A stretch of DNA of 58,898 nucleotides, filler included, from Sphacelaria rigidula (Eukaryota), in the NCBI GenBank assembly GCA_964200075.2. It is 4 parts of 4 records of this genome, joined end to end, with 100 filler letters (N's around TTAATTAATTAA, not from the genome) between each part and the next. Parts side by side here need not be neighbours in the genome. Positions count along the whole stretch, not along the records: positions 44,251 to 58,898 come from CAXNAA020002127.1; 3 more parts are not named here. One strand, given 5' to 3'. Position 1 is the stretch's first letter, and each line of letters opens with the position of its first letter. A model generated the notes under the pieces. It saw nothing but the letters and a program-made list of their open reading frames with translations. It had not been told where the DNA came from and did not search any database. This document shows, piece by piece, positions 8,589 to 58,898 of the stretch. Position numbers and translations under genes: made by a program.

Positions 8589-10283
8589 CATGGGCAGGTC
8601 GGGTAGGGTAAAACCAATACTTGGTATTTTCGTGACTTTCCAAATCTTATTACCCAAAAATTGGGTAGAGTACTTGAGGTCGTACCCAATCTACCCAAAA
8701 TATGGGTAACGTATTTGAGGTCATACCCATTCTACCCAATCTTTGGGTAGAGTATTGAGGTCATGCCCAAGGATACTCTATACTCGGGTATTCCTGAGAG
8801 TAGTTACACAGCACTTCGAAGCATTGGGTAGAGTATTTGAGGTCGTACTCAATCTACCCAATATACGGGTAGAGTAATGAGGTCATACTCAAGTAATTGA
8901 TACTCAATACCCAGGTATTGCTAAGAGTGCTTACCCAATATCGGGTAGAGTATTTGAGGTCGTACTCAATCTACCCAAAATTCGCGTCGATTGTTTGAGG
9001 TCGTACCCCGTCTACCCAAAGTTTGGGTAGAGTGTTTGAAGTCATACCCAATCTACCCCAAAATTGGGTTGATAGAGTAACTGAGGCCGGGCCCAATATA
9101 CCAAAATCTCGTGTATAACTTCAGTATTCAAGTTCGTCCCCAAGATACCCAAACCGCCTGTACAACACGGACCACCGGGGCCTATTTTGGGGGTCAGATC
9201 TATCACTCCTTACCCCGTCGCGCCTTTTTCTGTTGTTTCCCGTCGCGACTCTTGCGGTGTTACCACATCTTTTACCGTTTCCACCGCTGGGTCTCCCATA
9301 GAGGAGTCAGATGTGCGGCCCGTAGAGTCGCTCATTTTTACAATACCTACCCGACTACCCGTCTGCTTGATTACCCTATGATGATGAGTAGCGCTTTATA
9401 CTGAAGCTGATGTCGAAGAGGGTGCGAAGTATGAAATAACAAGCTATTATATAAAGTGAGGTTGTACGATGAAATGAGGTTCAAGCCCAAAACAGTGCTT
9501 TCCCCACACCTTCAGCAAGGGTGCCCAATGACTTTTTCGTCAGTCTAATGCCCGACGATCGCGTAGGTATTTTTTCAGCGCATTTTACCGACTCTGTGAG
9601 CTTACAGCGCTGACCGAAGCCGTCGTTTCCACTGACATCGCCCCCCCCCCCCTAAATAATCAGGAAAAAATCAACCATAGATCTCCGCCTAAAACTTTAG
9701 GTCGCCAGCCGTTCGCTCATACTCATTGTAGCCTATGACATGACGTCACTCATCCCATTGATGGCCACCGTTCGCCCATATTCGACATAGTCTTTGAAGT
9801 GACGTCACGAAGTCGCCAACGGTCATGGTTGATCATCATACCCAAGTTACCCCAATCCTGAGTCTTACTGAGACGACTTACCCAATATTGGGTAAAGTGT
9901 CTGATAACATACCCAATCTACACACAATTTGGGTAGAGTATTTGAGGTCATACTTAATCTATCCAAAGATAAGAGTACTGAGGTCATACCCAAGTGGTAA
10001 TCTATACTCAAGTATCACTGAGAGTGCTCACCCAATATTGGGTGGAGTACTTGAGGTCGTACCCAATCTACCCCAAAATTGGGTGGGGTATGAGAATCGT
10101 ACCCAATTTACCCAAAATTTGGGTAGAGTATTTGAGGTCGTACTCAATCTACCCAAGATTTGGGTAGGGTATTTGAGGCCGCACCCAATCTACCCAAGTC
10201 TTGGGTAGAGTAAATACCCGGGTATTTCACCCTAGTTCTTACCCTAGTATTCAAAAGTACGTACCCTACCCGACCTGCCCTTG
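8589..10283. mobile_element. hAT-type non-autonomous element, 1695 bp (ACCC subfamily)
   Basis: TIRs CATGGGCAGGTCGGGTAGGG / CCCTACCCGACCTGCCCTTG. Flanks CAACCGTT vs AAATCGTT match 6/8 (decayed TSD). Subterminal ~35-bp arrays; the core is homologous in reverse to that of 45140-46942. Confidence 0.8.
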
Positions 10284-44250: not shown

Positions 44251-45139
44251 GAAAGCACTGTTTTAGGCTTGAACCTCATCTCGGAGTTAAACCTCAATAC
44301 GCACAATTTGTTGTTGTAGGAGTCCCTTGGGGATAGTCCTCTTGTTCAGATCGTCTCGCAGAGGCTACACTTCGTAATGTTTGTTTCGAACTTTGTTGCG
44401 GGTCTGATATCGGTTGCTGTGCTGTATATGAGTTCGTTCATCTCTGTGTGAAATTGATGAAAACTAATGTGTCACATTTCACATCAACCAGCGGCTCCCG
44501 CCACAACGTCACACACCAAACAGCCCAATCGACAGCTGTACAGTGTACAGCGCACGGTGCACAGCGCACCGATAGTACAGCAGTGAGCACTACACTACTA
44601 TGTGACCGAGGTGGGACATCCCGCTACCCCAACAGCGCGACACGACGGAGACCGCTGAGGAGCAGAGGGCGAGAGAAAAAGCGCAGAGTTTTAGTTTTGA
44701 TCATGTATTTTTACTTTTCTACTATTATTTTTATCATGGCCTTCGAAACCAATGAACGGAGAAAAAACGGGCAATCCTATCTTCCAAGTAATCGTGAAAT
44801 CTTCAAATGTTCAATGTGCCGTCTTGTTTTCTTGCTGGAAGGTACGTTCCATGGGCGGTGCCGCCAGCAACCCGCCAGTAAACGCCTCAAAAAAGACGCG
44901 AACAGCGCGCATAAGTCGCGCATATTTCACCAAAATACGTATGAATCGGCGCATAGTGTTCAGTTTCGAACATGAAAAAAATGGAAAACGCGCACAAAAA
45001 CAAAATGCGCATAATAAAGAGCAAAATCCATAGAATACACCTATTTGTTTCAAAGACATTCCGTCTGGCGCCGGCGGGTGTACAATATATACGTTTTTTA
45101 TTGCAAGTGGTCTTCATTCGTGTGCGGGTATGACGTTTC

Positions 45140-46942
45140 CAAGAGTAGGTCGAGTAGAATAGGTACTTTTGAGTACTCGAGTAAAGTACTCAAGTGTTTA
45201 CTCTACTCGACGTTTGAGTAGGTCGAGTACGACCTCAAATACTCTACTCAAACATTGAGTAGGCGCTCTCAGTAATACTCGAGTGTAGAGTATCACTTGA
45301 GTATAACCCCAATACTCTATTCAAGTTTTGAGTAGGTCGAGTACGGACTCAAATACTCTACTCAAATTTTGAGTAGGTCGAGTATGGTGTCAAATACTGT
45401 ACTCAAATGTTGAGTATAAGCCGAGTATGGTCTCAAATACTCTACTCGAATATTGAGTATGTACTCCCAGTAATACTCGAGTATAGAGTATCACTTAAAT
45501 ATGACCTCAATACTCTACTCAAATTTCGAGTAGGTCGAGAACGGCCTCAAATACTCTACTCAAATTTTGAGTGGGTTGAGTATGGTCTCAAATACTTCAC
45601 TCAAATGTTGAGTAGGTCGAGTAAGACCTCAAACACTCTACTCAAATATTGAGTAAGCACTCTCAGAAATACTGGAATATAGAGTACCCCTTGGGTATGG
45701 TGAGTACCCCTGACAGTCGGCGACTTCGTGACGTCACTTCACAGACTATGTTAAATGCATGGGCGAACGATGGCCATCACTCAGATGGGCGGCATTACAT
45801 TACAGCCAACAAGGAGTACGAGCGAATGATGGCCATAAAAAATTCAAGAAGCGTGCGGGTGAACGAACCTACTTGCCCCAGCGCCCCATCCTACCACCCC
45901 CCCCCCACGGCAGTTCATACTCGATACCTCTGAACGCCTTCGATATCACTTTCAGCACAGAGCGCTACTCATCATCATCGAGTAATCGAGTAATCGAGTT
46001 ATCGAGTAGGTTTTACCAAACTGAGCGACTCTACTTGCCACGGTTTGACAAGACAGTTTGATCTTGAATCAATACTCATCATGGGTGGGCAACTCTAGGA
46101 ATACCTCGGTATTCCCTCCACTCGAGTTTGAGTATCTTGCGTACGAACTTGAATATTGAAGTTGAAGTTATAGGTTTTCGGTGCATCGAATCCGGCCTTA
46201 GATACTCCACTCAAATCTTGAGTAGGTCGAGTACGCGGCCTCCAATACTCTACTCAATTTTTGAGTAGGCCGAGTACGATCTCAAATATTCTACTCGACG
46301 TTTGAGTAGGTCGAGTACGACCTCAAATACTCTACTCAAATTTTGAGTAGGTCGAGTACGGCCTCAAATACTGTACCCAAGTTTTGAGTAGGCCGAGTAC
46401 GGTTGAGTACGGGCTCAAATACTCTACTCAAAGTTTGAGTAGGTCGAGTACGGTGTCAAATACTGTACTCAAATGTTGAGTATAGGTCGAGTATGGTCTC
46501 AAATACCCTGCTCAAATATTGAGTAAGTACTCCCAGTAATACTCGAGTTTAGAGTATCACTTAAGTATGACCTCAATACTCTACTCAAATTTCGAGTAGG
46601 TCGACTACGGCCTCAAATACTTTACTGAAATGTTGAATAGGTCGGGTATGGTGTCAAATACTTCACTCAAATGTTGAGTAGGTCGAGTACGGCCTCAAAT
46701 ACTTTACTCAAATATTGAGTAAGCACTCTCAGTGATACTCGAGTATAGAGTATATCACTTGAGTATGACCTGAATACTCTACTCAAATTTCGAATAGGTC
46801 GAGTACTGCCTCAAATACTCATCTACTCAATTATTGAGTAGGTTGAGTACGGCTTTCAATACTCTACTCAAATTTTGAGTACTAAGAGTATGACTCTTCA
46901 AAAATACTGAGTATTGAGTGTACTCTACTCGGCCTACCCTTG
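45140..46942. mobile_element. hAT-type non-autonomous element, 1803 bp (ACTC subfamily)
   Basis: Perfect 8-bp TSD GACGTTTC (45132-45139 and 46943-46950); TIRs CAAGAGTAGGTCGAGTAG / CTACTCGGCCTACCCTTG; ~35-bp arrays flank a non-coding core. Confidence 0.9.
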
Positions 46943-47276
46943 GACGTTTCCTCCCCGTCCCCTCTCGTTTTTTGCTGTGTACAAAATGTAGCGTTCAGTA
47001 TGAAAGCGGTGTTTGCATAGGCGTTTACGGATTCTGACAGTGTGGGACGTACGTACAGAAAAACGGTACGGTGTCTGTCCTTGTTTTTCAGCTGCAGTGC
47101 CGCTGCCAGTAAACACGTTGGCCACCGCAGCTAGGTTGCCGCACACACGAGTACAGATACCATCACCAGCAGCAAGTACATTCATCTAGCAGCGGCCGAC
47201 TGGTATAAGCAGCACAAGTAGGGAGAAGTAGGCACGAACTAGCGCGCTTCGCAGAGGATCGATCGACTTTTACAGC

Positions 47277-48512
47277 ATGTCCGGCATTGGCGGGGGCGCG
47301 GCTCGAGCAGGCGGAGATGAAAATCTTGCACCACACGGAGACGGCATGGCTGGGGTGGGGGCCGGTGGATCTCCCATAGCCGGCGGCGGGAGCCAAGCAC
47401 ACCAAGGTGGCGAGGGGGTGACAGGGCATAACAACCCACACGCGGCAGCAGCAGCGGCAGTCGACCAACCTCAGGGCGTCGTGCAAGCACCCGTCATGTC
47501 GCAGCAGGTGTTCCAGCAGCACATGCTGGCGGCATTGGCTCAGTTGACCAATCGCCTGTAGACGGTCGAGAATAACCAGCAGCCGCAGCCGCTACAACTG
47601 CCACACGCACCCCCACAGCAACCACCGCTGCAGATCGGGAACGGTTGCCAACAACCACCACAACCGCAGGTTTCAGCAGCTGGCGCGCAAGCGTCGGCAC
47701 AACGGACCGCAGCTGAACAGGCGGGTATAAAGGCAAATGCCAAACGTGCCGTCGACTCGTGGCGGGCCACCACTGGGCCTATGTTTTTTTTCCTGAGGGG
47801 GGGCTTTGATGTGTGTGAAGATCTCACTTTCCACCTACAACAGCTCACGCTCAAGAAGGTGGCTCACGTTACGCACGCATCCGCTAACCAGCTTCAAACC
47901 CTGGCCAATTTCAAGACAATGGACTTAAAAAAAACGGTGCCACCAGGCTCGACCCCCCTGGATATGCCGGCTGATGTGCATTTTCACACGTTTGTCGCGT
48001 CCCTGTTCACGGTTTTGCTTACCCCCAAGGAGCACACTCCCGAGTTATGCAAGACACGCACGCGCGCCCTTCAGTCGGAGTTCGAATCAGTAGCTAACCA
48101 CACACGTGGCCACTGGAGGCTCCAGGACCTTGCAGGCACCTTGCGCAACCTGGCCCGGCAAGGTAGGTTATCCACCTTTGGCAAGGTGGAGGTTGCGCAA
48201 GGTACGTTGCACAAGGTCCTGGGAGGTTGTGGAAGGTCCCGTAAGGGACGTTGCGCAAGGTCCTGCAAGATACGTTGCACAAGGTTCTGCAAAGTGCGTT
48301 GCACAAGGTCCTGTATGGTACCTTGCACAAGGTTCTGTAAGGTATTTTACACCAGATGGCGCGAGGTACCTTACACCAAGGTCCAGCATTTGGACAGGTG
48401 TCAACGTCTCCAACACGTTGGAGTCAGCAACATGAAGCTTTCCTTGCAGCTGATCATGTCGTGTATGCTTCCTCTCTTTGCATCACATTACTCCACTGCT
48501 TTAAGGACATGA
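47277..48512 (+). pseudogene. Disrupted intronless ORF, probably ORF1/gag-like of a transposable element
   Basis: ORFs 47277..47561 and 47781..48512 share a frame with a single TAG at 47559. G/Q/P-rich N-terminus, short coiled coil LAALAQLTNRL*TVE, and 24-bp tandem repeats at ~48190-48390. Confidence 0.45.
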
Positions 48513-49385
48513 CGCGAACAATATATACCCCCCTCCCCCCGAAAAAATATAAAAGGGACATACGCCTGCCTCAGGATGCTCCTGTGCTGGTGAGCAAGGT
48601 TCTGTACTCGGTCATGAGTATAAGTACCAACAAGTCGCGAACTGTTTTCAAGATCATCCCGTAGATCCATTCAAGCTGTTGACAGGATACGTGTTCTATT
48701 CATGCAGGCGTCTATCGTGGTCATCCACGACGTCAGGTCCCCCCTCCCCCCCATCTGTACGTACAGCAGCATAAAAAACGGAGAGCTTCCACAGTATATA
48801 TATACCGAACACCATGCAGTATATACCCACTCAACCCCTTCAGAGGCATCGTACATGACGCCTTTGACATATTTATGCAGTATATGGCCATCAACCAAAG
48901 CCCTTCTCCCCACCCCATCTTCACCTTCAATGGGAAAAAAAAAAATTACGCCCACACTATACCGTAGACCGTCTCGAACGCCCATTCAAGCCATGGTCAA
49001 GCAATGCATATGACGTCCTTGACACATACATATAGTAACTATCGTGGCAAACAACTTGAAGTTCTCCAGCCCTCACCCCACCTTGCCTTTCGACAAAAAA
49101 CAAACAACAACGAACGCCCCTACTATATTCGCGGATTCATAGTAACACCACGCGCCAGGCTGGGTCCGCTCCGTGTCCCCCATCCGAAAAGGATTAAGCG
49201 CCAGTAGTCACAGGGGAAATGTGGGTGGGCGCAGTGCAAGGGGGGGAAGGACCGAGGAGAAGAGCCGTAGCTCGACGTCAGGTACATCATCTACAAAACA
49301 TGCTATGAATACGACACAGTTACACTATCGACACCGCACCTCGTAAACGTGGCCACTCGAAACGGAGTCTTTGAGAAGTGAAGAG

Positions 49386-49655
49386 TGTTGGTTGGCTCGG
49401 TTGCCCGTGAAGAGTTGTGGAGATAGTTTATTAAAGCAGGTCAGCCAGTCTGACTGCGGTGATGGAATGGAGTGAGATGATGTGCAAACCACATATCTCA
49501 AGTCACCAAGTCAAGACTTCACGTATGTAACGTAACGCCTAAATGCGGTGTAACACCCTACACGTGTACCCAACCAGATCACCACACGTCACGCCAATCA
49601 CTCCTACGTAGATCCTTGTCGTAGACCTCCTCAAAGATACACAATTACATGAACA
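49386..49655 (-). repeat. LTR-A1 (3' LTR)
   Basis: TGTTGG...AACA with AATAAA on the minus strand, adjacent to the PPT. Confidence 0.92.
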
Positions 49656-51596
49656 TCCCCCCTAATCTGTAATCTTTGGACTCGATATATCATGAGCAAA
49701 TAATGGAGTTCGCCCATGCAAAAAGGAATCTTCTCCTTCTCTTACTCACGCGCATAAAATCGGAACAATTAAACGCAAACACAAATCAGTCGCATACTCC
49801 TACTCAACACACAATCTCGACCCGGTTGGGGAGATAATTAATGCAAACATACCATCTCAACCCGACGTAGCCCGGCTGGGGAGATAAAAAACACACAGCT
49901 CGAACATTCTGAAGGCACGTACCGAGGCGACCCTCGAGGCATCAGAGGTGAGCGTCCGCTTATTCAAAAACTCAGCGGAAGAATCGGGAGAAGAGGTCCG
50001 CTCCTGCTCCCGATCCGAAAACAATCGTGAAACATCCTGCACTCTCACAGTCACTCTCAAGATTCAATCTCTCATCCACCAAAAACATATGTTATGCTAT
50101 TTCCACGTACAGATGGTCCCTCGAACTTTCATTCCAACCCGTAGTAATTTACAAACAGTACGCATCTGTACTACTTTCACGCGACATCAGACGGTAGCAG
50201 AAAACTCGAAACAGAACAAAAAGATACAGTTCTACTGCACCCCGCATCATGTCATACTGTTCACTATATCCTATTGTACTGCAAGCGATGCTAATTTGCC
50301 TCTTGTCATGCATACTTTTACCAAAGTCAACATCGCTACTGTATACCCAATCTACTTCGCTACTGCCTACACATTCTATCATCCCCCCCCCTTTTTCGTT
50401 CCTCAAAAACAAGGAAAAGGATTTGTGTAGCCCCGGTCTCTCGCGCAGTATGCAAACAACTTTCACCATCGAGATCATCCGCTCAAAAACTATAATCCCA
50501 GCATTTCACTGGCCCATGGTTGTTACAGAATAATAAGTCACCCTTACTGTACGTTTGGCAATTTGTCCGGCCTTTACCCAACTCCATGATTTGAATGCAG
50601 CGCATGTCGTTTCATTTCTCCACCTGAGGTGCACTCCTACAGCAATTTCCCGGAATCGTGTACTGTTATCATCTTTCGCAGCGCTACATATAATGGTCTT
50701 TCAGGCCTCCACGCTACGGCCCTTCATCGTGTTCACGTTACTGACCCAATATTATTTTCGCTTCAGCGGTCTACTTCATTCATCATGTCCTGCACTTCAC
50801 GTTCATTACTACAACAGTCAATCGAAAAGAATCAATCACCGTACCCCTTCACGTTCGTTTTCAGCAGTCATAATTTCAAATTACCGGTGTTGCGATAAAT
50901 TTTCAGTCCATGTTCACCGATCACCGTACTCTCTTCGCGTTTCGTTCCTACAGTTTATCAACTATAGTTAGCCGAACCAGAACCAATTTTGTTACGCTTC
51001 AACAGTGCACAACTCGATTGCTTGCACGGTTGTTTTGAAGAAAATCTGTGTTCCAGCACTCTCGACCTTTCCTCAGTCACAGTTTCAAGGTACTTTACCG
51101 GTATATTCACCAAAACAAAATAACCTCATTACTTCACTCCCTCGGCAGTGTTTCCGGCCATCACTTGACATCATGATTGACGCATATCGTTTTTCACTGT
51201 TCATGATGCAACCTCCTACAGTCATTTTTCGGAACCATTCCTGTGCACATGTTTTTCGCTGCAAAGCTCTCGTTGTGATCGGCCTACCTACGCTGTAACA
51301 TTTTACGTATCCACGTTGCTGACCCATGTTTCCACTACAGTATTCCGCACACCTGTGAAAAACTTCAGTCAACGTTCAACGATCCCTGTACTCTTGCGTG
51401 CCTCAGTCAAACAACTTTAGTGGATTTTAACACACTCTTGCGCGTCCAACTCACAGTCTATAATTTTTCCGACTGCAACTTGCATGCATACAGGCAAGCA
51501 GTCAACACTCCGATGCGTTCAACAATCATTCACAGTCAGTATCACATTTTCCGGTCTATCTACCAAAAATTTCATGCAGGGTCACGATATAAATAC

Positions 51597-53092
51597 CTAA
51601 AATGCCTCGGCGTCAGCATCGCTGCACACGGACGAGTCATCCTCGTCTACCCCGTTCATTACTAGCGCAATGTCTTCCTCAGCTAGCTTGGCATCGTCCT
51701 CGTCTTTGCACTTCTCCGCGCTGTGACCCTTCTTCCCACACCTGAAACATCTTCGGTGAGGACACTCGCGCGCCCTGTGCGCGACTATTTTCCTACACAC
51801 ATGGCACCTCCACCGTGGAGGGTCGTCGCTCGAACTGCTCGACGCCGTCGATCTCGTGTCATCGCTGTCGTCACCACCTGGACCACCTTCTCCCCGACCA
51901 TCATCACCATCCTGCCTCTGACCCCGGGCCCTTCCACCGCGGCGCGAGCCGCTAGCTTTGCCCAACCGCCCCCTTGCCACCAAGGCGCCATTACTGGCGG
52001 ACCCCTTCTCGAGTAGCTTCTGGAAAGCGCTCGACTCGAACCTCCCCCTCACCACGGAAACCACTTCCTCCCTCCTCAACGGACCCTTCACTCCCTCCAA
52101 CATCTGACGTTGTACCTCATACTCGGGAAGCAGCGCATTGAGGAATTTGGACAGAATAAGGGAGTCGTTCAGATGTTTGAACTCTTCGTAACATCGCAGT
52201 CTTCGTGCTGTGCTCTCTAGTTCCACCAGTTGTACGATCGGGTCTTTGTCGACGGCTATTGTGACGTTGTCAATCTTACTTAATAACGCAAGCCTAGCCC
52301 CCTGGGTCTTTGGACTCCGTGTCTCCACGAGAGTATCCCAAGCTTCACGTGGAGAATGGACTCTAAAAAGTATGTCCTGGTCTACTTCCTCTGTGAGACT
52401 AGCGGACAAAAGGTGCCATACCCTGACGTTTGTACTCACTACATCACGCCCGTACTGTGCTTCTAGTTCTTCAATTACTACGCTCGGGTCGCCTACGTGA
52501 ATCAACTCACAATCCCCTGTAAACACCCAGTCCAGTCTCAAGTGTCGTGCATACGTAATGAAAGATTGTCGGAACCTCTCGAAGTCACCCTCCTTCCCAG
52601 TGTACTTCGGTACCTCAGGTTTAAATCCACTTGGAAACCCACCCTCATACATCCCCTGCATATTGAACCATAACTGAAATTGTGTCCACCCCTGGAGGGA
52701 GACTCACGTTCGGGGCCCCTTGCCCCTGGCGTTCCTCTTGTAGCCCCTGAGCTCGAACCATGAGGGCCTTGACTGCTCCCCCCATGGCCACGAAGGTCTG
52801 CCGCCTGCAGTCCCCCCGTGCGTTGCGGTTGATTTGTTGCTGCAGACCTCACCCCTGCTGGTCCACTGCTGACGATGACGTTTCCGCTCCTGACGCCTCC
52901 GGCTCCACCCACCCCGTTGCTGCTGATCTGCATGGTGTCCAGCCTCTGTGTCATCCGCTCCAGCAGACGGCCGAATGCCACCATCGTGTTCTCCACTTGT
53001 GCTAGACGATCGACGGTTGAAGAGGCCTGCAAGCCCCTCTCTGAACCGTTGTCCGAGGATTGCTGTTGTGAGCCGTTTCATCTTGCAGCCAT
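51597..53092 (-). pseudogene. gag: Copia-type gag (UBN2/Retrotran_gag_2-like with two CCHC zinc knuckles), disrupted
   Basis: ATG at 53092, TGA at codon 5, frameshift near 52662 into ORF 51597..52661. Contains SPREAWDTL, FLNALLPEYE, CHVCRKIVAHRAREC and CFRCGKKGHSAEKC. Confidence 0.85.
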
Positions 53093-53131
53093 CTTCGTGC
53101 GTTGAACCGTACCGGTAGGTAAATACTAGTA

Positions 53132-53401
53132 TGTTGGTTGGCTCGGTTACCCGTGAAGAGTTGTAGAGATAGTTTATTAAAGCAGGTAAGCCAGTCTGAC
53201 TGCGGTGGTGGAATGGAGTGAGATGATGTGCGAGCCACATATCTCATGTCACGAAGTCAAAACTTCACGTATGTAACGTAACGCCTAAATGCGGTGTAAC
53301 ACCCTACACGTGTACCCAACCAGATCACCACACGTCACGCCAGTCACTCTTTCGTAGATCCTTGTCGTCGACCTTCTCAAAGATACACAATTACTTCAAC
53401 A
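53132..53401 (-). repeat. LTR-A2 (5' LTR)
   Basis: Immediately upstream of gag on the minus strand; followed on the plus strand by GATGG. Confidence 0.92.
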
Positions 53402-54296
53402 GATGGGTCACCTTGGACGCGACGCTGTTGGTGATGTTCATTTGACGTTGTGGTTGGCCGTCCGTGGATGCTCGGTGGTTGGCTGCCAGTGCCATGTGCC
53501 TTCTCTCCCCCCTACTCAAATTCGCAACACTTCAAAACCGAGTACCAGAATGTTCACGGAAATTTCGGTCGACACTCATGGCCCGGGGGGGAGAAGCAGA
53601 ATTCGGGGGGATCTTACTAACAGTAGCTCGTCGTGGAGCAGAACCAAAACCTCGGGGAATCTCACTGACACCAACTCGCTGTGGGATAGGAGCAAAATCC
53701 GGGGGGACCTTACGGACACTATCTTGTTGGGGAGCAGAATCAAAACCTGGGGGAGTCTTAGTAACACTAGCTTGTTGTAGGATGGATGTAGTGTCTCTCT
53801 CAGTGGCGGCAACAGGAGTGACAACTAGAAGCTGTCCGTAGGTTGATGGCAAGCGTGTGGCAAGCTGTTCGTAGGTTGATGTAGTGCCATGTATACATTA
53901 TTTCCAGAGTGATCAGCAAGCGGCAGATCGGCAGTTGAGGTTTGATAGCGGTATATCGCATGGGAATAATTGTCGGGTGACTCTTGGTAGAGTGAGGAGT
54001 ATGGTGGTGGTGGTGCACCGGAGGAAGGATCACGGTTGGCGTGGTCTGGCGATGAAAGTTGAGATTGGTGATGGCCCTGTGGTGCGGTTGACGAGGAATA
54101 GTATTGGGATTGGTTGTGTTTTGAAGACTGTGGTGGATGGTGATTGGATGATGGAGGTGGTGTGTAATGGGGGAGGTGTTCCGCGAATGTGGTAGGCTGC
54201 GGCTGCAGCTGATGTTGGGAGGTTTGGTATTGTACTGTGTGGACGTAACCGACATCGTTGAAAGTACCGTCCTCATAGAGAAAGTTATCAACGCTC

Positions 54297-55641
54297 TCAT
54301 GGTGCTGGTGGCGGGATCAGTCTACTGAACGGTGTTGGCTTGTGGTGGATGTTTGTGGATTTGGTGTTGCGGATGCGGGTGATGGGGTTGTGATGGTGTG
54401 TGGTTGGTTGTGTAGTTGGACTGTTGGTGGTGGTGGGTTGGTTGATGTTGCTGAGGATTGGGGGTTGCTGGTCGTTGGGATGCTGCGTGTGGTACTGACG
54501 AGGAAAGCAGTTGGGACAATTAAAAGGGCAACGAATTTGGTAGGCTCTTGGACTTGGCTGGTGGACCCTACCGCGGCCCGGTCCCGAACGACTCCATGGA
54601 CTGTTTGGTCGCCATGGCTGTTGTCTCGGGGAATGCCATCCCCCTCGACCATCATGACCACTGCTGATGTACTGCTGTGAATCATGGTTGGTATGGAAAT
54701 TGGGTCGATGTGGACTAGGAGGGATGTGGTGGTTGGGCTGGTTTTGCGGATTGTGGGATCTGCGCTTCCCCCCGTTCTGCCTTTTGCCAGGTGAGCCATT
54801 GCCCCTTCCACCAGTACTTGAAGCGGAAAGTGCATGGTTCAAGGTTGTGTTCTACCTCTCTTTCAACAACTGCGGTTCTGCATACGCATTTCCTAGCTGG
54901 CGGGTTACCTCATCTATGTATATCTCTCGTGGTGCTAGTAGGTTCCTACGTTCGTGCTCGTATTCTGATGAAAGGCATCCAACAATATGCCTGTTCGCTT
55001 CCCAGTCCGAGAGAACTACATCGAATTCTTCACGCTTCATACGAATAAACTGGGCCCGCGAGAGAAAGTTCATTGGCAATTAATTCACCGTCGGCCATCT
55101 GCAACGTTTGCCAGTCGTGTTCCAACTTGGCTTTCTCTTTGGCTTCTGGAATCCTGTAGTACTGAGCGATATAATTCCAAGCTTGACTTGGGCTCGCAAG
55201 CATATCAATATGTCTCACCAACGGAGGAAAGGTCACTTTATCGAGTATTATCCTCATAGCCCTTTTGGCCTTATCGACTGCTTCGTTTCCAAAACATGCT
55301 CGTAAATCGTCCTCGTTTTCACGGTGTACCCTGATGGGGTTCTCAACTAGCAAAGCGCCATAACAGTTTTCATCCTTGAAAAAGGCACACAACTGGATGT
55401 TGAATACCTCAAACCTATCCCTGACATTGGTAGATGTGGCAGCTTTTTCATCCCAAGGTAGGATGCTTTCGTTGCTGCGAATGCGATGAGAATTGGGGGC
55501 GTGAGGGGTGTGGAACGGTGCTTGCTGTGCTGTTATAGCATGCATCACCGGTGTGTTGTTCATTCTCTGTTGCATCCTACTCAACTGTTCAGTCGAAGAG
55601 CTTACTTGTTCTTCTATCGTGGGGTGTTGACTCTCTTCCAT
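54297..55641 (-). pseudogene. gag: Copia-type gag of family B, frameshifted
   Basis: ORFs 55030..55641, 54852..55079 and 54297..54842 read as one gag: SPSQAWNYI, L..DW.TLQM..GE, PMNFLSRA, CLSSEYEHER, then a G/R/N/P-rich tail. Confidence 0.75.
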
Positions 55642-55922
55642 ATTGAAACCTAGTCAAATTATCAGCCTCGCTCAATCTGTAATCAAACCTGACAAACTTC
55701 ACACCTCTCTCAAACATTCCTCGACTTCAACCCTGCTCTTGCTCAAACTCTCCCACTTCGACTCGAACTCTCCTCTTGCTCAAGCTCTCTCCAATCTCAA
55801 ACCCTTCTGCACCGGCGGTGATTCTTATCGCAAGCGTAATCGACCGATCTGATGAGGGGTAAGCGTTCACACAGATAAAGTGGGTGAACAGCAGTCAATA
55901 CCTTGGCTCAGGCGAATAGCAA

Positions 55923-56311
55923 TGTTCCAGAACGTTCGTATTATCTCTTCACTTCACCCTGTTCACTCTCACACAATCCAATCATTTCAGTCACACAGTA
56001 ACACACGCTCAATATCCCTCTCACTTCAGTATCACTCTCACAGACTCACCACGTGCACTTATGTGAACCCCCTAGAGCAAGGCAGGCAGTTGGCACCCAG
56101 AACCCAGAACCAAGATGAAACGACTGAGGAGGGCGGTGCGCAACCAGGATGCTCGCTCTGCACACGTGATTGTACCCGCATACCCTACGTCATTATACAT
56201 GATCCCTCTGATTGGTCACCTAGTCCTCCGCAATTGCAACATGGTCCATGCTATTTGTACCGCATTATATCCTGCATCTCTGTTGCCCATGGCAGAGCGT
56301 GAGCATAGTCA
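55923..56311 (-). repeat. Probable LTR of family B (single copy)
   Basis: TG...CA-bounded segment between a purine tract and the gag leader. There is no second copy to confirm the ends. Confidence 0.45.
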
Positions 56312-57690
56312 ATTAGCCCCCCTGTTCACGGCTCAGCCATTACTTGAAAACCTATACCGTTGAAAACCGGAATAAGAAATAATAATCATCCGACACAAAA
56401 ATGGAAACAATTCAAGCCATGTTCAAACTCCATAAATATATTATATAAAAATCGTAAGTTACCCAGAAAATAATACCTATATATCATGCCGTCCAAAACC
56501 TTCATCACTCATCTCAAGTCATATTTAAAATCCAAAAATATAAGACATGAGAACTGAAGTTACCCAGGAAATATTACCTTCAGTATTTGTTGCCCCCTAA
56601 AACCTACATCACTCTCCCCTTCGCAGTAATATATTCCATGTAAATCTCAGGTCAAAAAGAGTTCATATCGTCAAATTTTCCGCCCCACTTGCTTTCGTGG
56701 CCATAGCGCTTCTGTCAAAACATTTGCCCTATTTCCACAAATTGAGAGCAAACGAAAAAATATATCAAGTAACGTTAGCATCTCGGTGATACTATAAATT
56801 GAGGTTTATCCGATCAAAGTCGAGCGGAACTACGATCGAACATAGAATACAGTTCAAAAGGATCTGGCGGAGGTTTACACGCAAAACAGAAGTCTCGAGC
56901 CTGAATGTTCAAGCATTCTAGATCTACGCCAGTTTTCCACGCAAAATGATCCTCCGCAAGTCCTAAAATGCCCAGTGAAGCATGCCACTGATCAATGACT
57001 GCAAGTCTGATGATTTATCAAATTAATCACCACTGCCAGACAGTAGTCGCATACGTGCATCCTCATATAACCTATAGGTGTCAAACCTCGAACAAAAATC
57101 ATGCAAAGTATAAACCTACTGATGAGCTGGAGATGTCAACATCTATCTCCGAACTCTATGCTCCTCCTCTGGTCAAAAGCCTCGAATCCATCTTTGCGCT
57201 CCATTCCAATCAATGTGCTCCTCCATATTTCCATGCCATTTTCTTGCCCCCCTGCTTCCTTGCCCCCCCAGCTTCCTTGCGCCCCCCACCTCAATATGAT
57301 CGACACCGCGCCATGCGTGAAACGTTTATCGCAAACAGGGTTTGTGGTGGCGGCAGCGGCAGCGGTTGTCATTGAGTTGTTGGCGATGTTGCTGGCAGAG
57401 GAGGTGGTAGTGGAGGCGATTGCGGTGTTGTCGGCGATGATAAAGGGACTGGGGATGATGATGGTTGTCGCGCGTGGTGCAACCGCGGAATTGTTGGAGC
57501 GCGAATCAACCGCGGAGTTGTAGGAGCAGGAGTAGGAAGTGTAGCTGTGGTAGTAGGTGGTAGCGGTGGTGATGCGGCAACGGGGAAGGGTGACGATAAT
57601 GTCGGTATGTCGGCGGCGTTGGCGACGTGATCAATGTTGCTTCCCCCCCCCCCGCCGTCGAGCGACGCCGCTGTGTGAAGTTGCTGATGG

Positions 57691-58830
57691 TGTTGGTTGG
57701 CTCGGTTACCCGTGAAGAGTTGTAGAGATAGTTTATTAAAGCAGGTGAGCCAGTCTGACTGCGGTGGTGGAATGGAGTGAGATGATGTGCGAGCCACATA
57801 TCTCATGTCACGAAGTCAAGACTTCACGTATGTAACGTAACGCCTAAACGCGGTGTAACACCCTACACGTGTACCCAACCAGATCACCACACGTCACGCC
57901 AGTCACTCCTTCGTAGATCCTTGTCGTAGACCTTCTCAAAGATACACAATTACTTCAACATCCCCCCTAATCTGTAATCTTTGGACTCAATGTATCATGA
58001 GCAAATAATGGAACTTGCCCATGCAAAAAGGGATCTTTTCCTTCTCTTACTCACGTGTATATAATCGGAACAATTAGACGCAAAAACAAATCAGTCGCAT
58101 ACTCCTACTCAACACACAATCTCGACCCAGTTGGGGAGATAAGCAACTGCAAACATATCATCTCAACCCGACCTAGCCCGGCTGGGGAGATAACACACAG
58201 CTCGAACATTCTGAAGGCACGTGCCGAGGCGATCCTCGAGGCATCAGAGGTGAGCGTCCGCTGATTCAAAAACTCAGCGGAAGAATCAGGAGAAGAGGTC
58301 CGCTCCTGCTCCCGATCCAAAAACAATCGTGAAACATTCTGCACTCTCATAGTCACTTCCAAGATTCAATCTCTCATCCACAAAAAAATATGTTATGCTA
58401 TTTCCACGTACTGATAGTCCATCGAACTTTCATTCCAACCCATAGTGAATTTTCTTTCAAAAAATAGATGAAAAAACAAACAAACAGCACGCATCTGTAG
58501 TACTCTCACGCTACGTCAGACGGTAGCAGAAAACTCAGAACAGAAAAAGATACAGTTTTACTGCACCCCGTATCATGTCCTACTGTTCACCATATCCTGC
58601 TGTACTGCAACCGAAGCTAATTTCCCTCCTGTCATGCATACTTTACCACAGTCAACACCGCTACTGTATACCCAGGCAACATCGCTACTGCCTACACATT
58701 CAACATCCCCCACCCTTTTTCGTTCCTCAAAAACAAGGAAAAGGATTTGTGTAGCCCCGGTCTCCCGCGCAGTATGCAGACAACCTTCACCATCAAAATC
58801 ATCCGCTCAGAAACTATAATCCCAGCATTT
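57691..58830 (-). mobile_element. Second family A copy (3' LTR, PPT and 3' internal region), truncated
   Basis: LTR-A3 at 57691-57960, then sequence collinear with 49656-~50505; preceded by GATGG. Confidence 0.9.
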
Positions 58831-58898
58831 AACAGCAAATTGTGCGAATTGAGGTTTACCTTTGAGATGAGGCTCAAGCCTAAAACAGTGCTTTCCCC
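58831..58898. repeat. Dispersed repeat, inverted copy of contig start 44251-44316
   Basis: AAATTGTGCG.ATTGAGGTTTA....GAGATGAGG.TCAAGCCTAAAACAGTGCTTTC; a partial third copy lies at ~9457-9505. Confidence 0.8.

What the first reader, a model, noticed from the sequence alone, without database searches (positions are those of the whole stretch)
49386..58830. Inside-out nested retrotransposon: a circularly permuted 1-LTR element between sister LTRs with inward-facing TSDs
Seen in sequence: (1) GATGG lies to the right of LTR-A2 (53402-53406) and to the left of LTR-A3 (57686-57690), while LTR-A1 is flanked by AAGAG. (2) By eye A2 and A3 differ at about 5 of 270 positions, but A1 and A2 at about 16, so A2/A3 are the sister pair even though A1/A2 enclose the gag. 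(3) Joining the two ends of 53402-57690 through one GATGG restores an open minus-strand frame (...ASKVTH|QQLHTAASLD...). (4) That segment runs 3'-internal, LTR, gag, which is permuted. Inference: element B carrying a nested A was excised as a circle by LTR-LTR recombination and re-integrated by homologous recombination into a different A copy, giving AAGAG-A-GATGG-B(permuted)-GATGG-A-AAGAG. That would be integrase-independent mobilisation of defective elements via extrachromosomal circles.
Basis: partly seen in the sequence, partly recalled or inferred. Interest (0 to 1): 0.8.

Follow-up and report, generated by a model that had tools for sequence, protein, structure and literature searches.

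The report
Inside-out nested retrotransposon, likely assembly loop
One copia-type retrotransposon is written inside-out around a second one that had jumped into it, but this order is more likely a loop made by the genome assembler than a real DNA circle that re-entered the chromosome.

Summary
Three 270-bp A LTRs differ at 16/14/5 sites, GATGG faces inward on sisters A2/A3, and element B between them is permuted around one 479-bp LTR; B is continuous across 5 bp in 20 of 25 other copies. The mechanism is not supported over its rivals. The window ends with its contig, so the predicted fourth LTR cannot be read. Both halves of the oddity occur separately elsewhere in this assembly: contig C3952 has the same inside-out B and closes on itself as a circle, and 2 of 3 other same-contig A LTR pairs are non-sisters with mismatched TSDs. 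Contig ends point to a 127-base word assembly, and the central B LTR shares its last 158 bases exactly with another contig, right where the permuting join lies. Odds: assembler loop through an ordinary nested pair 0.50; real head-to-tail tandem plus a switch between A copies 0.25; circle plus homologous reintegration 0.12. Reads of the assembled individual would decide; none were available.

The parts
48101..49385 (.). Repeat C, host of the A1 copy; ends in AAGAG (49381-49385)
   Evidence: 92-97% matches on C21002, C7997, C6346, which run on past AAGAG without A; the same empty site shows as loose ends in runs X1, X2, X3
49386..49655 (-). LTR A1, a 3' LTR of another A clade (nearest: solo LTRs C3857 and C3935, 5 differences each)
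49656..53131 (-). A internal region: PPT next to A1; copia-type gag broken into two frames (52704-53099 and 51597-52703); no pol found; holds the unlocated switch between two A copies
   Evidence: (PF14223 E=3e-4, below cut-off)
53132..53401 (-). LTR A2, 5' LTR, sister of A3
   Evidence: 5 differences in 270
53402..53406 (.). GATGG, inward-facing target-site duplication, copy 1
53407..55836 (-). B, gag-side part (gag domain in 55030-55653; frames broken)
   Evidence: (PF14223 E=2.4e-3, below cut-off)
55837..56315 (-). Single B LTR with TA...TA ends and B internal sequence on both sides: the permuting join; 56158-56315 is identical to the LTR on C25954
56316..57685 (-). B, PPT-side part
57686..57690 (.). 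GATGG, inward-facing target-site duplication, copy 2
57691..57960 (-). LTR A3, 3' LTR, sister of A2
57961..58830 (-). A internal region next to A3; with its LTR it differs from the A1-side copy by 76 substitutions in about 1.1 kb
58831..58898 (.). End of a very high-copy repeat inserted in A; the contig stops here

Best explanation
The contig shows a gag-only copia-type element A that inserted at GATGG into a copia-type element B, and the inside-out order is likely a path taken by a short-read assembler through repeats rather than the order on the chromosome. Shown: the A-into-B insertion, the permuted order in the contig, and that A1 belongs to another A copy. Inferred: the chromosome holds an ordinary LTR-B part-GATGG-A-GATGG-B part-LTR; the assembler passed from B's 5' LTR into its 3' LTR across a shared stretch, turning the nested pair into a loop, and entered that loop from a different A copy.
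For: Two of 19 whole contigs tested (C25233, C22267) end on exactly 127 bases identical to their other LTR, and C3952 starts on such a 127-base copy: the mark of a word-graph assembly with word size 127 (inference). The central LTR shares its last 158 bases exactly with C25954, while its first 321 bases differ at 16; Fisher P=0.0012 against private changes in 11 other LTRs, and 0 of 55 other pairs are identical there. C3952 has the same inside-out B around another nested element, inward TSD CGCCA, no flank at all, and its ends overlap into a closed circle. 3 of 4 same-contig A LTR pairs have mismatched TSDs, against 578 of 3,799 intact elements in pear (PMC4668562, passages; P=0.012, or 0.06 for 2 of 3 without this locus). 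The sister of one mismatched LTR (C10775a) lies on another contig (C22516), as a swap would leave it. A third internal B LTR (C22375) shares 150 exact bases with a TSD-less solo LTR (C851). Both A and B are broken, so neither copy could move by itself.
Against: 7 of 7 B copies with two LTRs on one contig that I compared look like true sister pairs (C15121 and C13653 were not compared), and a pair of the D family has matching TSDs: the assembler is not generally chimeric. In C25233 and C22267 it stopped at the shared 127 bases instead of jumping. No false solo LTR identical to the central LTR was found for this contig (best 95%) or for C3952 (best 92%); only 40 of 91, 52, 57 and 107 candidates were scored. 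The central LTR of C3952 shares no exact run of 80 or more bases with any held locus. A2 and A3 kept 5 differences, so near-identical repeats were not simply merged. No shared run of 127 or more bases was found in the A1-A2 internal region (longest 120). The model needs two wrong joins. The 150-base run of C22375 is not rare at 17 differences in 488.
Confidence: 0.5

Rival explanations
1. A real head-to-tail tandem of B carrying A, formed by unequal recombination between B's LTRs after A had inserted, gives the shared LTR and the inward TSDs. The A1 end was added separately, by ectopic crossover between two A copies or by the assembler.
For: Tandems that share an inner LTR are common in long-read plant assemblies (266 in a rice pangenome; PMC11899658, parts 1 and 3 of 6). 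3 of 30 B LTR loci here have internal sequence on both sides. A collapsed tandem would be written exactly like C3952 (inference). Non-sister A pairs occur without B on C10775 and C631, so the two events need not be coupled.
Against: No outer B LTR close to the central one was found (best 95%). No second near-identical copy of B's gag side appears (next best 89%), though it would collapse. The 158-base identity with an unrelated B copy is not explained.
Confidence: 0.25
2. One reading: B with nested A was excised as a one-LTR circle by LTR-LTR recombination, and the circle re-entered the genome by homologous recombination into another A copy at AAGAG.
For: The contig order, the inward GATGG, the sister A2/A3 and the foreign A1 all fit. 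C3952 has the layout of such a circle. Intrachromatid LTR circles are known in yeast (PMC4751563, passages), and integrase-independent recombination of Tf1 cDNA into existing Tf2 copies is shown (PMC11042837, abstract and section 9).
Against: None of the three predicted pieces was found: no A LTR followed by AAGAG among 30 loci of 33 matches, no orphan right flank of C among 13 matches (the 2 pattern hits are unrelated), no donor solo LTR. These absences are weak (13 of 23 LTRs lack partners). It needs excision, survival of the circle and targeted re-entry in one germ-line cell, while both halves of the pattern occur separately elsewhere. It does not explain the 158-base identity.
Confidence: 0.12
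3. A one-LTR circle of B with A was present as free DNA in the sample and was spliced onto A1 by the assembler; or a read-through transcript of a tandem or circle was reverse-transcribed with a template switch to an A1-clade RNA and inserted as one composite at AAGAG.
For: C3952 closes as a circle without any flank. Complex elements made before integration have been proposed (10.1101/452573, part 1 of 2; PMC1950507, search listing only).
Against: A free circle would need chromosome-like read depth. The composite route needs a prior tandem or circle plus a switch. A2/A3 differ at 5 of 270 sites and both gags are broken, so these copies are not young or active.
Confidence: 0.07

Closest known systems
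Tandem LTR retrotransposons sharing an inner LTR (PMC11899658; parts 1 and 3 of 6 and passages read)
   Same: An LTR with internal sequence of the same family on both sides; the authors note that such structures are hard to tell from artefacts in short-read assemblies.
   Different: Here the unit carries a nested element of another family, so its TSDs face inward; the outer LTRs and outer TSD are not in the contig.
Intact elements without TSD, from inter-element recombination (PMC4668562; passages read)
   Same: A1-internal-A2 has non-sister LTRs and mismatched flanks.
   Different: Rate here is 3 of 4 against about 15% in pear, and in one other case the sister LTR survives on another contig.
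Integrase-independent insertion of Tf1 into existing Tf2 (PMC11042837; abstract and section 9) and Ty one-LTR circles (PMC4751563; passages)
   Same: Recombination into a resident copy yields tandem or hybrid elements; LTR-LTR recombination yields one-LTR circles.
   Different: The Tf1 donor is cDNA of a related element; re-entry of a genomic circle carrying a second family was not described in what I read.
TR-GAG non-autonomous LTR elements (PMC4350172; passages read)
   Same: A has LTRs, a PPT, 5-bp TSDs and a copia-type gag without pol found.
   Different: A is 4,016 bp and B about 4.76 kb with two LTRs, at or above the 4-kb limit; no tRNA-type primer site was shown.

Membership tests
Ty1/copia LTR retrotransposon (element A) | Direct terminal repeats with TG...CA ends | tested here: met
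   270-bp LTRs, TGTTG...AACA
Ty1/copia LTR retrotransposon (element A) | 5-bp target-site duplication | tested here: met
   GATGG on A2/A3; matching 5-mers on solo LTRs and on C11620
Ty1/copia LTR retrotransposon (element A) | Polypurine tract before the 3' LTR | tested here: met
Ty1/copia LTR retrotransposon (element A) | Copia-type gag | tested here: inconclusive
   PF14223 E=3e-4, 20.7 bits, below the cut-off of 27
Ty1/copia LTR retrotransposon (element A) | pol with integrase before reverse transcriptase | tested here: not met
   No pol family in the 4 A frames scanned; other A copies were not scanned, so A is filed only as a copia-like non-autonomous element
Ty1/copia LTR retrotransposon (element A) | Primer-binding site matching a tRNA | not tested
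   The site begins with an 8-base palindrome, not TGG; no tRNA set was compared; self-priming on the LTR was tested and not found
Ty1/copia LTR retrotransposon (family B) | LTRs, PPT and 5-bp TSD in unpermuted copies | tested here: met
   C1519 and C11070 have matching TSDs; ends are TA...TA rather than TG...CA in most copies
Ty1/copia LTR retrotransposon (family B) | gag, then protease region, then integrase, then reverse transcriptase | tested here: inconclusive
   On C3952, Pol_BBD (E=3.6e-5) then rve (E=2.1e-8, above cut-off) follow gag; the downstream frame had no Pfam hit at 1e-3. No pol hit in the window copy's 5 frames scanned
TR-GAG | Under 4 kb with gag only | tested here: not met
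   A 4,016 bp; B 4,284 bp with one LTR
Tandem LTR retrotransposon | Inner LTR shared by two internal regions | tested here: met
   55837-56315
Tandem LTR retrotransposon | Array starts and ends with an LTR and has an outer TSD | tested here: inconclusive
   Contig ends first; no close outer LTR found
Circle re-integrated by homologous recombination | Permuted one-LTR unit with inward TSD | tested here: met
Circle re-integrated by homologous recombination | Fourth LTR, A1-like, followed by AAGAG and the rest of repeat C | tested here: inconclusive
   Not found; partners are missing for 13 of 23 non-solo A LTRs
Circle re-integrated by homologous recombination | Solo B LTR at the donor site | tested here: inconclusive
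   Best match 95% and not a solo; 40 of 91 candidates scored
Circle re-integrated by homologous recombination | Both joins present on single DNA molecules | not testable with these tools
   No run holds half of the stretch's words; all listed runs are kept as short contigs

The most novel reading that the evidence does not exclude
Nested pairs of dead copia elements in this alga leave the chromosome as one-LTR circles and re-enter it by recombining with another copy of the passenger element. The window would be a re-integrated circle and contig C3952 a second case or the circle itself, so inward-facing TSDs would be a searchable fossil of integrase-free movement of one family piggy-backing on another.
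Probability: 0.12. Interest if true: 0.6.

Novelty: not a real feature. Interest (0 to 1): 0.22.

Why it matters
If the circle model were true, inward-facing TSDs between sister LTRs would give a rare dated footprint of a retrotransposon circle re-entering a germ-line genome without integrase, and a pattern to search for in long-read assemblies. On the likelier readings it is a caution: a short-read assembly can write an ordinary nested pair, or a tandem, in exactly the order that an excised circle would have.

Tried and rejected
Reading beyond the window: 58898 is the end of contig C2127. Fourth LTR with AAGAG: none in 30 loci of 33 matches; C2229 has an A1-like 5' LTR but another flank (CCCCT), rejected. 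Orphan right flank of C: the 3 close matches of 13 are intact empty sites; 2 pattern hits are unrelated. Continuation of A3's internal region: no second close copy among 12 matches (best 88%). Donor or false solo B LTR: none above 95%. Crossover inside A: not located; divergence from C2229 is 10 of 500 in 51800-52299 and 35 of 832 beyond, P=0.04 with a breakpoint chosen afterwards, too weak. Reads: the 4 runs laid hold 0.35-0.44 of the words and differ at hundreds of sites, so they are probably other individuals; no listed piece bridges the joins, but only 32 of about 10,000 pieces were shown, which proves nothing. Simple tandem B-A-B-A alone: rejected, as A1 is flanked by repeat C. C19028 and C25954 as outer LTRs of a tandem with this unit: rejected, as C25954 has a different, longer internal region and no match to the GATGG junction. 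Self-priming primer site: not found. No tRNA gene in the window. Earlier findings: 3 look-ups returned nothing.

Full report
Setting. The window is four contigs joined by N spacers. The finding lies on G000:C2127 (window 44251-58898), and the window ends where the contig ends. G000 has 244 Mb in 27,214 contigs. One run holding part of the stretch is labelled 'algae metagenome'; that the host is an alga is an inference from that label.

Observation. All four points hold in the contig. The three A LTRs are 270 bp: A1 49386-49655, A2 53132-53401, A3 57691-57960, with 16 (A1/A2), 14 (A1/A3) and 5 (A2/A3) differences; AAGAG precedes A1, GATGG follows A2 and precedes A3. A lies on the minus strand: A1 and A3 are 3' LTRs with a polypurine tract, A2 is a 5' LTR. 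The segment between the two GATGG is element B. Of 25 other B loci, 20 join its two ends across exactly 5 bases, 2 across 4 or 6, 1 across 85, and 2 lack a match to one side; none of the 20 reads GATGG. All 4 runs laid show the same joint. Each side is open in the same phase and the natural copy C25233 reads through. One B LTR (55837-56315) lies in the middle with internal sequence on both sides. A1 sits in a third repeat, C, whose empty site is seen on three contigs and in three runs. So an A copy did insert into a B copy at GATGG, and A1 belongs to another insertion.

What the elements are. A and B carry weak copia-type gag hits below Pfam's cut-off, and both gags are broken into several frames. 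A relative of B on C3952 carries integrase after gag. They are best filed as decayed, copia-like elements, gag-only in these copies.

Predictions of the circle model. None of the missing pieces was found: no A LTR followed by AAGAG (30 loci of 33 matches), no orphan right flank of C (13 matches), no continuation of A3's internal region (12 matches), no solo B LTR above 95% (40 of 91, 52 and 57 candidates scored). This is weak evidence, because 13 of 23 non-solo A LTRs have no TSD partner in the assembly. The crossover inside A could not be located.

The pattern is not unique, and its halves come apart. (i) C3952 has the same inside-out B around another nested element D, with inward TSD CGCCA; a natural B copy (C15476) is continuous there; the contig has no flank, and its ends overlap inside the D LTR, so it closes as a circle. 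C22375 is a third B LTR with internal sequence on both sides, making 3 of 30 loci. (ii) Of 4 contigs with two A LTRs around an internal region, 3 have non-sister LTRs and mismatched TSDs (C2127, C10775, C631) and 1 matches (C11620); the sister of C10775's 3' LTR lies on C22516. In pear 578 of 3,799 intact elements lack TSDs (PMC4668562, passages); 3 of 4 has P=0.012 at that rate, 2 of 3 without this locus P=0.06. A single concerted event is therefore not needed.

Signs of the assembler. Two of 19 whole contigs tested end on exactly 127 bases identical to their other LTR, two more on 120 and 106, and C3952 begins with an exact 127-base copy. I infer a word-graph assembly with word size 127, in which any exact repeat of that length is a shared node. 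The central B LTR shares its last 158 bases exactly with the LTR on C25954, while its first 321 bases differ at 16; eleven other LTRs carry 41 of 106 private changes in that right part (Fisher P=0.0012), and 0 of 55 pairs among them are identical there. The permuting join thus lies on such a node. Recent gene conversion could give the same identity. The two LTRs closest to the central one (C19028, C25954) carry a matching AGGTG flank pair; whether these are the true flanks of this B copy is open.

Results against the artefact reading. 7 of 7 two-LTR B contigs compared look like sister pairs, and a D-family pair has matching TSDs; C15121 and C13653 were not compared. The assembler stopped, rather than jumped, at the shared 127 bases in two B copies. 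No identical false solo LTR was found for either inside-out contig. C3952's central LTR shares no run of 80 bases with held loci. No run of 127 or more is shared inside A1-A2 (longest 120). The contig also crosses two other exact runs above 127 bases (132 and 142), so such nodes are not rare. Two wrong joins are needed.

Mechanism and odds. Shown: insertion of A into B; permuted order in the contig; foreign origin of A1. Inferred: how the order arose. An ordinary nested pair whose B LTRs are joined in the graph, a real tandem, and an excised circle all write the same sequence, so the assembly alone cannot decide. I put the assembler loop at 0.50, a real tandem with a separate switch in A at 0.25, circle plus homologous re-entry at 0.12, and a free circle or a composite retrotransposition at 0.07. 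These odds are judgement, not computed.

Comparison with what is known. Tandems sharing an LTR are common in plants and hard to tell from short-read artefacts (PMC11899658, parts 1 and 3 of 6 and passages). One-LTR circles by LTR recombination are described in yeast and in Magnaporthe (PMC4751563, PMC9694575, passages). Integrase-independent recombination into resident copies is shown for Tf1 (PMC11042837, abstract and section 9). Complex three-LTR elements are discussed in 10.1101/452573 (part 1 of 2). In the listings of searches I saw no report of a permuted element between sister LTRs with inward TSDs; this rests on titles and abstract starts, and no supplements were read. If real and made by a circle, it would be a new variant of a known kind.

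Verdict. On present evidence the inside-out order is more likely an assembly path, or a tandem, than a re-integrated circle. Interest 0.22.

Noticed in passing
L179/L180 (G000:C3952:1-12258): Second inside-out B, here with integrase, around nested element D; inward TSD CGCCA; the contig closes as a 12.2-kb circle without flanks.
   Followed up: yes
window 53124-53131 and 55829-55836; L091; L180: In A, in other B copies and in D the 5' LTR is followed by an 8-base palindrome with a CTAG core instead of the usual TGG primer site (recalled rule); the window's B copy has a changed form. No self-priming match in the LTR. Primer unexplained.
   Followed up: partly
window 55837-56315; L179:7171-7559: B and D-family LTRs mostly end TA...TA rather than TG...CA; TA-starting LTRs are reported for tomato TARE1 (PMC3701649, search listing only).
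   Followed up: partly
window 44251-44315 and 58831-58898; also 9454-9505: End of a very high-copy repeat (depth hundreds of times that of neighbouring bins) at both ends of C2127 and at or near the ends of C25066, C22054, C18989 and C13007; family not identified.
   Followed up: partly
L178 (G000:C22375) and L130 (G000:C851): A B LTR with internal sequence on both sides and a solo LTR with mismatched flanks share 150 exact bases: possible reciprocal products of one swap.
   Followed up: partly
L100 (G000:C10775), L163 (G000:C22516), L098 (G000:C631): Other A elements with non-sister LTRs and mismatched TSDs; the sister of one lies on another contig.
   Followed up: partly
window 45137-46900 and 8609-10229: Arrays of a 41-bp unit with higher-order spacing of 157-198 bp, in opposite orientation on two contigs.
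   Followed up: no
window 47232-48512: Two open frames on the + strand, rich in Gln and Pro, running into the 24-bp repeats at the start of repeat C; no Pfam hit.
   Followed up: partly
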